Shown here: piece by piece, positions 1,477-12,969 of the stretch
How positions within the stretch are numbered: the stretch's first letter is position 1
How the letters are laid out: each line of letters begins with the position of its first letter
Source of the DNA: Eledone cirrhosa
Lineage: Eukaryota
Assembly: GCA_964016885.1 (NCBI GenBank)
Contig: CAXHJY010000229.1
Span: forward strand, 1 to 12,997
Length of the DNA: 12,997 bases
Reading direction: 5' to 3'
The notes under the pieces: generated by a model
Databases searched by the model: none
Told to the model about the DNA's origin: nothing
The model's input: the letters and a program-made list of their open reading frames with translations, nothing else
Position numbers and translations under genes: made by a program

Positions 1477-1796
1477 ATATCACAGAAAAAAAGAGAATCA
1501 GTGTTGTGACGAGTGGAATTTATTGGACATATTACAATCGTTTCCTAATAGGAAAATCTGCTTCGTAGAATCGAGACGTATCTGAGGACCTTGCGATTTT
1601 CAGAGTCAGGTTTGATTATCACATCGATCGTGCCTCGAGCTTGTTGCCAGAGAAACGATTGTAAGATGTCCAACAAATTCCATTCGTTGCAACAGTGATT
1701 CTCTTTTTTTCTGTGATATCACATTCTGCTCTATGAGAGCATCGAGTGCTCAAACGGCCTATCGCATATGGACGCTTTAAGCATCCAGCACCAATT
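1477..1796 (+). mobile_element. Fold-back element A: 68-bp inverted arms plus one-sided tail, hammerhead-bearing (Penelope-like remnant)
   Basis: Arms 1477-1544 and 1652-1719 are reverse complements with 6 mismatches. Unpaired extension 1720-1796. (TA)n on both sides. Contains a hammerhead core. Confidence 0.7.
1575..1670 (+). ncRNA. Type I hammerhead-ribozyme-like motif (decayed helix II)
   Basis: GACGTAT-CTGAGGA(1582-1588)-63 nt-GAAAC(1652-1656)-GATT-GTA-AGATGTC. Helix I pairs 6/7, or 7/7 with the ATATGTC variant kept in the inverted arm. Helix II CCTTGCGA/TTGCCAGA is imperfect. Confidence 0.6.
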
Positions 1797-1985
1797 ATAT
1801 ATATATATATATATATATATATATATATATATATATATATATATATGTATAAAAGTTATATTTAAATTGTTGGGATACAACAAGCAAATATTTTTATAAC
1901 TGACATAAAGCACTCAACAAATAATTGGAGTAAAAATACGATATTAACAAATGGAAACTATATTTATAAAACCATATTTATTTCA

Positions 1986-2039
1986 TTATACATATTTCAA
2001 GGACACCAAGTTAAATTATGGTGTGCTTTCTTCAGATAA
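1986..2039 (-). ncRNA. Minimal type I hammerhead-like motif (left arm of B)
   Basis: Minus strand reads TTAT-CTGAAGA-AAGCACACCA-loop-TGGTGTCCTT-GAAA-TATG-TA-TAA. Confidence 0.6.
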
Positions 2040-2184
2040 AATATAATATAGAGCAGTTTTATAAATAAATATTGACATACCCTTAAAGAATGCAACCATT
2101 ACTATCCGGGAGCTTCCACCAGTAATGGTTGCGTTCTTTAAGGGTATGTCAATATTTATTTATAAAACTGCTCTGTGTGTGTTT

Positions 2185-2238
2185 TTATCTGATGAAAGCA
2201 CACCATAATTTAACTTGGTGTCCTTGAAATATGTATAA
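2185..2238 (+). ncRNA. Minimal type I hammerhead-like motif (right arm of B)
   Basis: CTGATGA 2189-2195; helix II 2196-2205/2216-2225 (9 of 10 paired); GAAA 2226-2229; TATG; TA; AATAAA at 2242. Distal helix I TATTTATAAAACT/GGTTTTATAAATA. Confidence 0.62.
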
Positions 2239-2344
2239 TGAAATAAATATGGTTTTATAAATATAGTTTCCATTTGTTAATATCGTATATATATATATAT
2301 ATATATATATATATATGTGTGTGTGTGTGTGTGTGTATGTATGT

Positions 2345-2545
2345 GTGGAAGGAAGACGCAGGAGAGGTAGAGCACGAAAAATATAGGTGGAGGTGGTGAG
2401 AGCAGACCTCAGATCGCTGAAACTCACGGAGGAGATGACGAAGGGCCGTGACAAGTGGAGAGATGCTGTGCTGAATAGGACCCGTTCTACCCTTGCAAGT
2501 AGGGAAAAGGGGACGTAAAATGGTGATAATGAGGATGATGATGAT
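2345..2545 (+). mobile_element. 3' end of an RTE-clade LINE with (GAT)n tail
   Basis: Frame 2345-2518 reads VEGRRRRGRARKI*VEVVRADLRSLKLTEEMTKGRDKWRDAV..., matching the G.R.RGRP...W...V..D......DR..WR signature of RTE C-termini. TAG at 2384 replaces the conserved Trp. A GAT-repeat tail follows. Confidence 0.85.
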
Positions 2546-2569
2546 ATGTGCAAACATACGTTGGTCAAG

Positions 2570-4020
2570 TGTATATGTATGTATGTATGTATATATGTAA
2601 GTATGTATGTATGTGTGTGCGTATATATATATATATACAAACATATATATGTGTGTCTGTGTGTCTGTTTGTGTCTGTCTGTTTGTGTCTGCCTGTGTGT
2701 TTGTGTCTCTCTCTGTGTGTCTGTCTGTGTGTGTCTGTCTGTTTGTCTCTGTTTGTGTCTGTGTGTGTCTGTGTGTTTGTCTCTGTTTGTGTCTGTCTGT
2801 GTGTTTGTGTCTGTCTGTGTGTGTCTGTGTTTGTGTCTGTCTCTGTGTGTGCGTGTGTCTGCCTGTGTGTGTGTCTGTGTATGCGCGGGTGTGTGTCTGT
2901 CTGTATGTGTTTGTCTGTCTGTGGGTGTCTCTGCCTGCGTGTGTGTGTGTGTATGTGTGTTTGTCTGTCTGTCTGTCTGTATGCGTGTGTCTGCCTGTGT
3001 GTGTCTCTGTATGTGTGTATCTGCCTGTGTGTGTGTGTGTGTGTGTGTCTGCCTGCGTGTGTCTCTGTGTGTGTGTATCTGCCTGTGTGTGTTTGTCTGT
3101 CTGTGTGTGTGTATGCCTGTGTCTGTCTGTCTCTGTGTGTCTGTCTGTCTGTGTGTGTGTGTGTGTGTGTGTCTGTCTGTGTGTGTGTGTCTGTCTGTGT
3201 GTGTGTCTGTCTCTGTGTCTGTCTGTCTCTGTGTGTGTCTGTCTCTCTGTGTGTGTGTGTGTCTGTCTGTGTGTGTGTGTGTGCCTGTGTGTCTGTCTGT
3301 ATCTGCGTGTGTGTGTATCTGTGTGTGTGTGTGTGTGTATCTGTGTGTGTGTCTATATCTGTGTGTGTGTGTGTGTGTATATCTCTGTGTGTGTCTGTCT
3401 CTCTCTCTGTGTGTATGTCTGTCTGTGTGTATGTGTGTGCCTGTGTCTATCTGTGTGTGTGTGTCTGTCTCTGTGTGTGCCTGTGTGTCTGTCTGTATCT
3501 GTGTGTGTGTGTGTATCTGTGTGTGTCTGTATGTGTCTGTGTGTGTGTGTGTGTGTGTCTGTCTGTGTGTGTGTCTGTCTCTCTCTCTGTGTGTATGTCT
3601 GTCTGTGTGTATGTGTGTGCCTGTGTCTATCTGTGTGTGTCTCTGTGTGTGTGTGTCTGTCTCTGTGTGTGTGTGTGCCTGTGTGTCTGTCTGTATCTGT
3701 GTGTGTGTATCTGTGTGTGTCTCTGTGTGTGTGTGTGTGTGTCTGTCTGTGTGTGTGTCTGTCTCTCTCTCTGTGTGTGTCTGTCTCTGTGTGTGTGTCT
3801 GTCTGTGTGTCTGAATGTGTGTGTGTGTGTGTGTGTGTGTCTCTCTCTCTCTCTGTGTGTGTGTCTGTCTCTGTGTGTGTGTGTCTGTCTCTGTGTGTGT
3901 GTGTGCCTGTGTGTCTGTCAGTATCTGTGTGTGTGTGTCTGTATCTGTGTGTGTGTGTGTCTGTATCTGTGCGTGTGTGCCTGTGTGTCTCTCTCTGTGT
4001 GTGTGTGTCTGCCTGTGTTT
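2570..4020. repeat. About 1.45-kb compound (GT)/(GTCT) microsatellite with local higher-order repetition
   Basis: Nearly pure GT/CT dinucleotides. GTGCCTGTGTCTATCTGTGTGTGT recurs at 3437 and 3617 (180-bp period). Confidence 0.97.
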
Positions 4021-4140
4021 AAGTGTGAATATAAATAAGCAACGCAATGTTTGTATTCGTTTGTTTGTGTTTGTGTTAAACTGTCTAAATAGCAATGATT
4101 TTGTGTATTTACATACTACGTACGGCTGTATAGATATATA

Positions 4141-11048: not shown

Positions 11049-11445
11049 TAAAATTATGATAAATACAAACCCTTTGTAATAAACAGATCTGTACAATGGC
11101 GACAAACGTGTTAAAGGCGATAACTTCTTTCAATAAATTTTCCAGACTTTCTTAAGGAATCCCTATTCTTTCTTGCGACACTGCCGTGTAGGTTTCAATT
11201 GCAAAAAATGGCCCACAGTATCTGTTTTAAGTGAAACAACAGATTTTCTTTCGTTGCGTCCCCACTTTTACTATGACAACAAGGATAACGTTCACCCTTA
11301 CGATCAACGGTTTCCCCTCTTCCGTTCCCTGGGCTAAACACATATACATTTCAATCTTGTCTATCTTTTGTTTATTTACCATCAACTACCAATATCTCTG
11401 ACTTCACACACACATATATATATATATATATATATATATATATAT

Positions 11446-11710
11446 CCAGTGGTGAACCAACAAACCTATATATATATATATATATATATATATATATATA
11501 TCCAGTGGTGAACCAACAAACCTATATATATATATATACATATATATATATATATATATATATATATATATATATATATATTATATATATATATATATAT
11601 ATCCAGTGGTGAACCAACAAACCTATATATATATGTATATATATATATATATATATATATCCAGTGGTGAACAACAAACCTATATATATATATATATATA
11701 TATATATATA
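11446..11710. repeat. Four copies of 21-bp CCAGTGGTGAACCAACAAACC separated by variable-length (TA)n
   Basis: Copies at 11446, 11502, 11603 and 11661 (the last lacks one C). Intervening DNA is essentially only TA repeats. Confidence 0.95.
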
Positions 11711-12054
11711 CGTACAACACACATATATTTAGCTCTCTTGCGATCACATTTGTTCCCCGGGAACGGTGACGGCGGCGTTGTTGTTCCCACCCGGCCGCAC
11801 GGTTTTCTTTTTCATTTCTGGACACTTAACTTAGTCTGCCCTAGGCTTACTACTCACACTTTTCAACAAATGGGTTCTGGAGACAAACCATCTGATTAAT
11901 GGTGTGTGTGTGTATGTGTGTGTGTGTATAAGTTGACGGGACTAGCATAAGTTACCATGCTAGTATCGGTTGTATCTCAGCGTACTCAATAGATAAGATT
12001 ATAAAAATTCCCAGAGTAGACAGAAAGTAGACGTAAATGGGTACCAAAAATCTC

Positions 12055-12169
12055 TACCCGTACTCAAGTTTCGGCCACACTTAACGCAGCAAGAGAGCGT
12101 ACAGCACCCTTTGTCTGCAATTATCGTGCAACAATGCACAATCGGTGCATGTGGCCTCATCAGCGGGTA
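12055..12169 (-). ncRNA. Intact-looking type I hammerhead ribozyme with enlarged helix II loop
   Basis: Minus strand reads TACCCG-CTGATGA-GGCCACA-[70 nt]-TGTGGCC-GAAAC-TTGA-GTA-CGGGTA. Perfect 6-bp helix I, perfect 7-bp helix II starting G-C, full core and GUA triplet. Predicted cut between 12061 and 12060. Confidence 0.85.
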
Positions 12170-12285
12170 TCACCTAATCAATATGCAATTTAACGACATA
12201 ATTCGATTCCAGTCCGTGCAGCCTATGGCAGTAAATGCGACAGGCGACAAAGTAGTACAGTTGTAACTGAAATCCCTACGCGTCA

Positions 12286-12385
12286 TCTCTCTCTCTCTCT
12301 CTCTCTCTCTCTCTCTCTCTCTCTCTCTCTCTCTCTCTCTCTCTCTCTCTATATATATATATATATATATATATATATATATATA
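12286..12385. repeat. Compound (CT)n(AT)n microsatellite
   Basis: Pure CT to 12350, then pure AT to 12385. Confidence 0.98.
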
Positions 12386-12567
12386 GTAATAATTGTTTCT
12401 AGTGTTGGCACAAGGCCAGCAATTACCCTGTACATTACTGGTACTTTATTTTATCGACCCCGTAAGGATGAAAGGCAAAGTTAACCGCGGCGGGATTTGA
12501 ACTCGGGCCGTAAAGAGACGAAACTATGCTGGAAAGCATGGCGTCCGGCCTTCTACCAACACTGCCA
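12386..12567 (-). mobile_element. tRNA-derived SINE, family 1, near full length
   Basis: A-box TGGCAGTGTTGG and B-box GAGTTCAAATCC on the minus strand. Colinear with 10411-10592. Confidence 0.9.
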
Positions 12568-12911
12568 AAGACCAATATATATATGGCCATATATACTGTG
12601 CTGACGCCATATATATATATATAGCTTTGTTGAAGATATATGTTTTTTGAAAAAATATTTTTCGCGTCACTTTCTAGCACTCCTGACCAACTTGAATGTA
12701 ACCTGATCTCACCGCTGGCCTCTGTCTATGACGGGGTGGTAGTAGTACACTATAAGCCTACGCCCCTTCACCACAAGGACATAAAAAGACTTAGCAATCA
12801 TCACTCGAGGACGGTTGACCGGGCTAGAAGCTGCTAAATGTTCGGCCGCCCTCCTGTCTCTGCTTTTCAGCCTCATGGATTTTGTCTATTATATTCCTTT
12901 GTTTATTTCGA

Positions 12912-12969
12912 ATACCTGATGATGTCACCGGATTCATACTGGACCCGGTCACTGAAATGTTCATAGTAT
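12912..12969 (+). ncRNA. Type I hammerhead-ribozyme-like motif with intact core
   Basis: ATAC-CTGATGA(12916-12922)-TGTCACCGGATTCA-TAC-TGGACCCGGTCACT-GAAA(12954-12957)-TGTTCA-TA-GTAT-AATAAA. Distal pairing GTTTATT/AATAAAC and TTCCTT/AAGGAA extends helix I. Confidence 0.72.

What the first reader, a model, noticed from the sequence alone, without database searches (positions are those of the whole stretch)
1575..12969. Eight hammerhead-ribozyme-like motifs from about five unrelated families in 13 kb of apparent junk DNA
Seen in sequence: CTGANGA...GAAA...UH cores with correctly placed helices I and II at 1575(+), 1986(-), 2185(+), 5603(+, one core change), 8739(-), 8953(+), 12055(-) and 12912(+). 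All have type I topology with a tiny helix III that is palindromic or near-palindromic (ACGATTGT, ATATAT/ATATGT, ACGCGCGT, ACTTGAGT, ATGTTCAT), and several are followed by AATAAA. Established knowledge: Penelope-like elements and retrozymes carry minimal type I hammerheads with palindromic helix III, thought to cleave as dimers. Inference: this genome hosts a dense and diverse population of small non-autonomous hammerhead retroelements hidden among microsatellites, probably poorly annotated.
Basis: partly seen in the sequence, partly recalled or inferred. Interest (0 to 1): 0.85.

Follow-up and report, generated by a model that had tools for sequence, protein, structure and literature searches.

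The report
Hammerhead-tipped Penelope retrotransposon fragments
The eight hammerhead motifs are real and sit at the 3' ends of six insertions of Penelope-like retrotransposons, a few of an estimated 200,000 such motifs in this (likely octopus) genome, where they likely cut the element's RNA only as pairs.

Summary
Observation confirmed, with corrections. Six of eight sites pass a strict type I hammerhead descriptor (0 hits in 400 shuffles); two are decayed. They come from six insertions of five repeat families, and four motifs are simply the arms of two inverted insertions. All families behave like Penelope-like elements (PLEs): fixed 3' ends, variable 5' truncation, inverted 5' copies, microsatellite targets. 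Family A2 is the 3' end of a young, intact Hydra-clade PLE (738-codon ORF, hammerheads in both pseudo-LTRs). B and C trail Hydra-type endonuclease remnants. Only D (~0.88 kb) and E (2.08 kb) are non-coding tandem units. The families are not unrelated: A, B and E share a helix II mismatch, and with C a downstream AATAAA, a 3' end about 50 nt past the cut site and a tail motif. An evenly spaced 600-kb sample gives ~200,000 motifs genome-wide; at least 20 families were seen. With helix III unconstrained, 31 of 32 eight-base segments were self-complementary, supporting the known dimer model. Cleavage and expression were not tested. PLE hammerheads, including one octopus Hydra family, are published; the scale and shared module appear unreported.

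The parts
1477..1544 (-). Family B: short inverted copy of the element's own 3' end (5' inversion)
1548..1792 (+). Family B: 5'-truncated PLE 3' end with hammerhead and full tail (GAGTGCT motif at 1743), between (TA)n tracts
   Evidence: 93% identical to L353, whose upstream part ends in a Hydra-type endonuclease C-terminus
1575..1670 (+). Hammerhead B: core CTGAGGA at 1582, 63 nt between core and GAAA, helix III ACGATTGT, predicted cut after 1663; helix I 6/7; family AATAAA mutated here
1849..2103 (-). Family A left arm: full 3' end with tail; hammerhead core CTGAAGA at 2035, predicted cut after 1987; tail motif at 1916
2117..2285 (+). Family A right arm (inverted partner, ends at the short 3' end); hammerhead core CTGATGA at 2189, helix III ATATGTAT, predicted cut after 2237
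5595..5735 (+). Family C: short truncated copy in (TA)n; decayed hammerhead, core CCGACGA at 5609, helix III ACACGCGCGT, H17 at 5687
   Evidence: 77% to L199, where a Hydra-type endonuclease lies ~1 kb upstream
8606..8865 (-). Family A2 left arm with tail (motif at 8668); hammerhead core at 8789 with U16.1 to C change, likely dead
   Evidence: 89.8% to the pLTR of the full-length element
8881..9056 (+). Family A2 right arm; intact hammerhead, core at 8957, helix III ATATATAT, predicted cut after 9006
   Evidence: 91% to the pLTR of the full-length element
11446..11690 (+). Four short copies of the extreme 3' tail end of family E, separated by (TA)n
11927..12287 (-). Family D: truncated copy of a ~0.88-kb non-coding unit; hammerhead core at 12163, 84 nt between core and GAAA, helix III ACTTGAGT, predicted cut after 12061
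12594..12983 (+). Family E: truncated copy of a 2,077-nt non-coding unit, cut by the contig end; hammerhead core at 12916, helix III ATGTTCAT (family ATGATCAT), predicted cut after 12965

Best explanation
These motifs are the pseudo-LTR hammerheads of Penelope-like retrotransposons, left at the 3' ends of 5'-truncated or inverted insertions in microsatellites, and in tandem master copies they likely pair through their self-complementary helix III to cut the long transcript, while most scattered copies are likely inactive by-products. Shown: A2 belongs to an intact Hydra-clade element laid out hammerhead - ~190 nt - 738-codon RT/GIY-YIG ORF - 1.5-1.7 kb - hammerhead. D and E are non-coding units in partial tandems. 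Copies of A, A2, B, C and E end at two places, about +50 and +130 to +200 nt past the cut site; D has one main end. Inferred: a tandem copy is transcribed through into the next unit; the PLE protein nicks AT-rich DNA and starts reverse transcription internally at these two sites, as shown in vitro for an anole PLE; early termination or inversion leaves fragments that almost always include the ribozyme. E likely borrows a Hydra protein, because it shares the helix II mismatch, AATAAA, +50 end and tail motif. D's helper is unknown. In the two inverted pairs each ribozyme would be buried in a ~165-bp hairpin.
For: Repeat families: 40 candidates scored for each of five queries, out of 149-3,028 first-look candidates. 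Fixed 3' ends with variable 5' extents. Bimodal 3' ends: A2 25 of 42 at +40-59 and 14 at +130-149; B 43 of 77 and 28 at +130; E 35 of 74 at +40-69 and 20 at +190-209; A 48 of 84 and 29 at +150; C 30 of 40 and 5 at +160. All 8 full-length loci fetched (chosen for a 738-aa frame among 150 listed) have the ORF, and 7 of 8 have a same-strand hammerhead on both sides; ORF DNA 98.8-99.2% identical. Hydra motifs present. Unconstrained helix III test on 600 kb: 47 hits against 10 in 10 shuffle rounds; 31 of 32 eight-base segments fully self-complementary, including the inner pair a monomer cannot form. Self-duplex energies -1.8 to -13.9 kcal/mol against +2.2 to +5.2 for monomer hairpins. Covariation on 36 chosen motifs: 15 of 20 pairs change on both sides, score 0.516 against 0.244 shuffled and at most 0.167 slid. 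E tandem period 2,077 nt; 17 of 30 unit-start loci preceded by the previous unit's hammerhead end. D period 859-883 nt in 3 loci. Precedents: PMC4209133, PMC8557442, PMC11167929.
Against: No cleavage or expression data: no RNA holder listed. As single strands only D folds significantly (z -3.2); the other five motifs folded give z -1.3 to +0.2, several in other folds. Many copies are decayed: both core halves intact in 26 (A), 21 (B), 14 (C), 11 (D) and 20 (E) of 29 top hits. Helix II position 1 is unpaired in 10 of 20 families. The B link to an ORF rests on one locus; the C link on a 77%-identical subfamily in two loci; subfamily A's own ORF was not found. In the anole PLE the ribozyme needed protein, was dispensable for insertion in vitro, and no RNA reads ended at the cut site. 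The covariation alignment holds related sequences, so its shuffle count is not a probability.
Confidence: 0.75

Rival explanations
1. The structure is kept, but for protein binding or folding in the retrotransposition complex rather than for cleavage; any cutting is weak, protein-assisted and not needed for mobility.
For: Anole PLE: ribozyme mutants still insert and cleavage needs protein. Dimeric PLE hammerheads cleave poorly in vitro. U4C cores in C and two more families. A young Neptune-type family showed no consistently placed descriptor hit within 1.5 kb downstream in 30 loci.
Against: The catalytic core is invariant or nearly so across families whose helices have turned over. Helix III keeps self-complementarity through many different sequences, which fits dimer catalysis. 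U4C is reported to keep activity in vivo in a viroid.
Confidence: 0.15
2. One reading: all five are small non-autonomous retrozymes that spread through short circular RNAs.
For: D and E are non-coding partial tandems. Most C copies are short. Non-LTR retrozymes are reported as PLE derivatives.
Against: A2 flanks an intact ORF. B and C copies extend into long UTRs and endonuclease remnants. No short multimeric arrays of these motifs in the window. Units are 0.88-4 kb.
Confidence: 0.07
3. Chance matches in AT-rich, repetitive DNA.
For: AT-rich helices pair easily; single-strand folding is mostly not significant.
Against: 0 hits in 400 window shuffles; 36 hits against 0, 0, 1, 1, 0 in sample shuffles; compensatory changes; fixed position in PLE units.
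Confidence: 0.01

Closest known systems
Hydra-clade PLEs, including Hydra-1_Obim of Octopus bimaculoides (Craig et al. 2021, PMC8557442)
   Same: C-terminal GIY-YIG, RW-basic, DKT, CxCX5C, CxxC and CxH motifs, no CCHH, (TA)n targets, hammerhead near the 3' end. By eye, the A2 protein resembles the printed Hydra-1_Obim protein.
   Different: A different family. Unit ~4 kb against <3 kb for most described. Helix III is a perfect 8-nt self-complement; the 26 listed Hydra rows show 3-4 bp stems with 1-3 nt loops. Core-to-GAAA distance reaches 63-115 nt in some families here. Very high copy number, many families.
Minimal PLE hammerheads that work as dimers (Cervera and de la Pena 2014, PMC4209133; Lunse et al., seen only as cited in PMC6765202)
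   Same: Type I topology, palindromic helix III, long helix II, short helix I, opposite-strand pairs 100-700 bp apart, many families per genome.
   Different: Counts there were thousands per genome. A pyrimidine-pyrimidine mismatch at helix II position 4 and a shared tail motif are not mentioned in the parts read.
Poseidon element PAc of Anolis (Frangieh et al. 2024, PMC11167929)
   Same: Hammerhead in the pLTR just upstream of the ORF; two discrete 3' ends defining a tail; AT-rich targets.
   Different: Other clade. In PAc the ORF starts inside the ribozyme and the tail is 30-40 nt; here the ATG is 188 nt past the cut site and the tail is 80-150 nt.
Non-LTR retrozymes (Cervera and de la Pena 2020, PMC7229834; Li et al., bioRxiv 10.64898/2026.07.22.740005)
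   Same: D and E are non-coding, type I hammerhead-bearing tandem units, consistent with non-autonomous PLE derivatives.
   Different: Reported units are 150-450 bp (51-972 bp in the preprint). E is 2,077 nt. Both D and E occur mostly as 5'-truncated singles or partial tandems. Circular RNA not tested.

Membership tests
Type I hammerhead ribozyme | CUGANGA, GAAA and UH core with three helices, open helix I | tested here: met
   6 of 8 window sites pass; 8789- and 5609+ are degenerate
Type I hammerhead ribozyme | Compensatory change in helices with a conserved core | tested here: met
   15 of 20 pairs change on both sides across 36 chosen motifs
Type I hammerhead ribozyme | Match to an Rfam hammerhead model | tested here: not met
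   None in the full lists for 1490-2280 and 11900-12997, none among 150 shown of 197 for the window; RF00163 hits a compact family elsewhere in the genome
Type I hammerhead ribozyme | Self-cleavage after H17 | not testable with these tools
   Needs an in vitro or RNA-end assay
PLE dimer-type hammerhead | Short self-complementary helix III | tested here: met
   31 of 32 eight-base segments with no constraint applied; duplex favoured over hairpin
EN+ Penelope-like element | Single RT plus GIY-YIG ORF between pLTRs that carry the hammerhead | tested here: met
   A2: 7 of 8 full-length loci. Pfam gave no hit for this ORF at E 0.1; identity rests on motifs and tblastn to PLE RT and endonuclease queries
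EN+ Penelope-like element | 5' truncation, inverted 5' copies, partial tandems, optional tail | tested here: met
Hydra clade (A2) | RWK, DKT, CxCX5C, CxxC and CxH motifs; no CCHH | tested here: met
   RWR (conservative change) at 38, DKT 119, CxCX5C 597, CxxC 695, CxH 722; one Cys only inside GIY-YIG (definition)
Hydra clade (A2) | Placement in the clade by RT phylogeny | not tested
   No reference sequences were available as tool inputs; by-eye comparison only
Hydra clade (B, C) | Linked Hydra-type ORF | tested here: inconclusive
   B: 67-aa endonuclease end in 1 locus, 28% to the A2 ORF, pairwise E 2e-08. C: broken ORF in L199 and L192, 32-33%, in a 77%-identical subfamily
Hydra clade | Insertion into (TA)n | tested here: met
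   A, A2, B and C lie in (TA)n in the window; D ends in ATT/TA-type repeats instead
Non-LTR retrozyme (D, E) | Non-coding tandem unit with a type I hammerhead per unit | tested here: met
   Longest stop-free frames at most 129 codons in 7 D and 126 in 3 E copies; no tblastn hit with three PLE proteins; tandems
Non-LTR retrozyme (D, E) | Short unit (150-450 bp; up to 972 bp reported) | tested here: not met
   E is 2,077 nt (not met); D at ~880 nt is inside the wider range only
Non-LTR retrozyme (D, E) | Abundant circular RNA | not testable with these tools
   No RNA holder listed

The most novel reading that the evidence does not exclude
This genome holds more hammerheads than any count seen in the papers read (~200,000 against 126,247 in axolotl), driven by a still-active Hydra-clade radiation. 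Its families share a conserved RNA module: a pyrimidine-pyrimidine mismatch at helix II position 4, AATAAA just past helix I, a first reverse-transcription start ~50 nt past the cut site, and a GT(C/T)GAGTGCT tail motif. That module is the recognition signal for the Hydra protein, and it lets a 2-kb non-coding passenger (E), about twice the longest reported animal retrozyme, be mobilised.
Probability: 0.35. Interest if true: 0.72.

Novelty: new member of a known kind. Interest (0 to 1): 0.5.

Why it matters
What PLE hammerheads do is still open. This genome offers a very young, intact element with natural tandem copies, a matching non-coding passenger, and 20 or more families whose covariation points to specific nucleotides to mutate. 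It also shows that Rfam-based annotation misses these ribozymes (235 were counted in giant squid by Rfam), and that about one motif per 15 kb, often with a poly(A) signal or a long hairpin, could affect host transcripts.

Tried and rejected
Rfam on the window: only spurious miRNA-like hits to hairpins and TA repeats; nothing on the E unit and no relevant hit in two D loci. No tRNA in the window. The repeat finder was swamped by microsatellites. No PLE ORF in the window itself. The Neptune-type ORF next to E in L151 and the ORF upstream of E in L159 and L229 were first taken as E's coding partner; rejected because E's upstream sequence runs into the previous E unit and microsatellites or other repeats lie between. 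The GIY-YIG near D in L156 lies on the other strand and was not linked. Sequencing runs: no RNA holder listed; three runs of one sample, of unknown kind, were laid on E; depth climbs toward the hammerhead, which is no copy number and no evidence of expression. Tail hairpins are suggestive but not significant (z -0.8 to -1.6). Earlier scan findings: none. Lunse et al. was not held.
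Full report
Setting. The window is the whole of contig C256 of a 3.0-Gb assembly with about 30 large contigs. It is mostly (TA)n and (TG)n with interspersed repeats. The closest named relative of the element protein found here is from Argonauta hians, at 39%, so the host is likely an octopod; this is an inference.

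Observation. All eight motifs are present. A strict descriptor (core C[CT]GANGA, GAAA, 8-nt helix III segment, UH, helix I and II thresholds) finds six: C3 at 1582+, 2035-, 2189+, 8957+, 12163- and 12916+. It finds none in 300 local and 100 global dinucleotide shuffles. The descriptor was written knowing these motifs, so the fairer control is the genome sample below. Site 8789- has lost U16.1. Site 5609+ has U4C, a 2-nt helix III insertion and a weak helix I. Rfam reports no hammerhead in the two stretches listed in full nor among the 150 of 197 rows shown for the window. The pairs 2035-/2189+ and 8789-/8957+ are arms of single inverted insertions that fold into ~165-bp hairpins (-251 and -243 kcal/mol). 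There are therefore six insertions.

Families. Each motif belongs to a dispersed repeat: first-look candidates were 149 (A), 2,923 (B), 3,028 (C), 2,455 (D) and 2,439 (E), with 40 scored and 30 fetched each, the window copy included. Majority sequences restore self-complementary helix III where the window copy is decayed. Among the 29 other top hits both core halves are intact in 26, 21, 14, 11 and 20; these hits are biased toward the window copy. Copies share 3' ends and are variably 5'-truncated, often with an inverted 5' copy. The 3' ends are bimodal in A, A2, B, C and E: one about 50 nt past the cut site, one at +130 to +200. D has one main end, 44 of 60 at +140-159.

Autonomous partners. 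In two sampled stretches an A2-type hammerhead lies ~1.5 kb downstream of an RT and GIY-YIG ORF. Its last 150 residues found 62,084 first-look candidates; all 150 listed rows were 100% identical. I fetched 8 of those with a 738-aa frame: all have the ORF, and 7 have a same-strand hammerhead on both sides, ~4 kb apart. ORF copies are 98.8-99.2% identical. The window's A2 arms are 90-91% identical to this pLTR, the A arms 82-84%; subfamily A's own ORF was not found. The protein carries the Hydra-clade marks listed by Craig et al. (section read): RWR for RWK, DKT, CxCX5C, CxxC, CxH, no CCHH. Pfam does not recognise it. Hydra-type coding remnants occur in 16 of 60 sampled stretches, 20.8 of 600 kb. 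B extends ~1.3 kb upstream in 2 of 4 long copies fetched, and in one reaches an endonuclease C-terminus. A C subfamily 77% identical to the window copy follows a broken Hydra-type ORF by ~1 kb in two loci.

Non-coding units. E forms tandems with a period of 2,077 nt, the two repeats 99.7% identical. In 17 of 30 loci picked by the unit start, the previous unit's hammerhead end lies upstream. D shows hammerhead-to-hammerhead periods of 859-883 nt in 3 of 30 such loci; 5 have an upstream hammerhead. Neither has a long frame or a match to three PLE proteins.

Scale. In 60 evenly spaced 10-kb stretches the strict descriptor found 36 motifs against 0, 0, 1, 1, 0 in shuffles. Published counts, made with other descriptors, are 126,247 in axolotl, >6,000 in Acropora, ~5,000 in mussel (passages), ~9,000 in Xenopus and 235 in giant squid by Rfam. 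Across 1.73 Mb of fetched loci, enriched for the five families, 308 motif instances fell into 44 clusters, 20 with two or more members.

Structure. With no constraint on helix III the sample gave 47 hits against 10 in ten shuffle rounds. Of these, 32 had an 8-nt segment and 31 were fully self-complementary; 6 of 7 six-base segments were ACTAGT; three of the four nine-base ones were ordinary hairpins. An alignment of 36 motifs that I chose from seven clusters plus the window shows an invariant or nearly invariant core and 15 of 20 pairs with change on both sides; the sequences are related, so this is support, not a probability. Helix II positions 2 and 3 pair in 20 of 20 families, but position 4 is a pyrimidine-pyrimidine mismatch in 10 (7 C-C), all with 8-nt helix III. 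AATAAA lies within 30 nt past the cut site in 86-91% of A, B and E copies (background 2.7%) and in none of D. The motif (C/T)GAG(C/T)GCT occurs at a family-fixed place in the tails of 6 of 20 clusters, including A (28 of 81), B (15 of 49) and E (11 of 32), against 0.6% background; many copies stop before the tail. It is in 2 of 26 C copies. D lacks all three features. Against activity as monomers: only D folds significantly.

Mechanism. Shown: anatomy, tandem layout, two 3' ends, conserved core, self-complementary helix III. From the literature: PLE hammerheads cleave weakly and as dimers (PMC4209133, parts 1-2 of 4 read; review passages; Perreault 2011 passages). An anole PLE starts reverse transcription internally at two sites, and its ribozyme is protein-assisted and dispensable for insertion in vitro (PMC11167929, parts 1-2 of 4). 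Inferred: read-through transcripts of tandem masters carry two same-sense ribozymes that pair and cut; copying starts 50-200 nt downstream, so truncated inserts keep the motif and then decay; inverted pairs bury it in double-stranded RNA; E uses Hydra proteins.

Novelty. The kind is known, and one Octopus bimaculoides Hydra family with a hammerhead is in the supplement of PMC8557442 (passages, section 11 and supplement parts seen). Non-autonomous PLE-derived retrozymes are known (PMC7229834 passages; bioRxiv 10.64898/2026.07.22.740005 parts 1-2 of 5; its supplements are closed). Searches listed no paper on cephalopod hammerhead abundance or on a helix II mismatch; only listings were seen for most, and PMC8967140 passages mention Penelope abundance only. 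Lunse et al. was not held and may cover the structural points. Verdict: real, largely explained, new families of a known kind, with a notable scale and a testable shared module.

Noticed in passing
window:11446-11690: Four ~24-nt copies of the extreme 3' tail end of family E separated by (TA)n; repeated abortive insertion or local amplification.
   Followed up: partly
window:1-181 and 3437-3617: The first 181 bases of the contig are identical to 3437-3617; local duplication or assembly artefact.
   Followed up: partly
window:241-731: 41-bp minisatellite, 12 copies, 93% matches.
   Followed up: no
window:860-1010, 10409-10595, 10960-11045 (-), 12393-12570: Copies of a very abundant SINE-like repeat, hit 150-210 times in the fetched loci. 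Resemblance to octopus SINEs is recalled, not tested.
   Followed up: no
window:10631-10667: Perfect GC-rich palindrome of about 36 nt, seen in the sequence.
   Followed up: no
window:2345-2540: 3' end of a LINE-like repeat with a (GAT)n tail; similar to a coding remnant in L154.
   Followed up: no
L151:6465-8203; L252-L280: Young Neptune-type PLE family (22,054 first-look candidates, many 784-aa frames) with no consistently placed descriptor hit within 1.5 kb downstream in 30 loci.
   Followed up: partly
clusters 12 and 14; family C: U4C cores (CCGANGA) recur in at least three families and several singletons.
   Followed up: partly
L245-L246 (E tandem): The E unit holds an internal ~150-nt duplicated domain (73% alike) with no Rfam match; the 5' inversion junction falls on the palindromic helix III.
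   Followed up: partly
L365-L372: A compact hammerhead family that does pass Rfam RF00163: 18 matches among 74 scored candidates.
   Followed up: partly
L324, L333, L334: D units start directly at the ATT-repeat end of the abundant SINE-like repeat, suggesting an ATT target rather than (TA)n.
   Followed up: no
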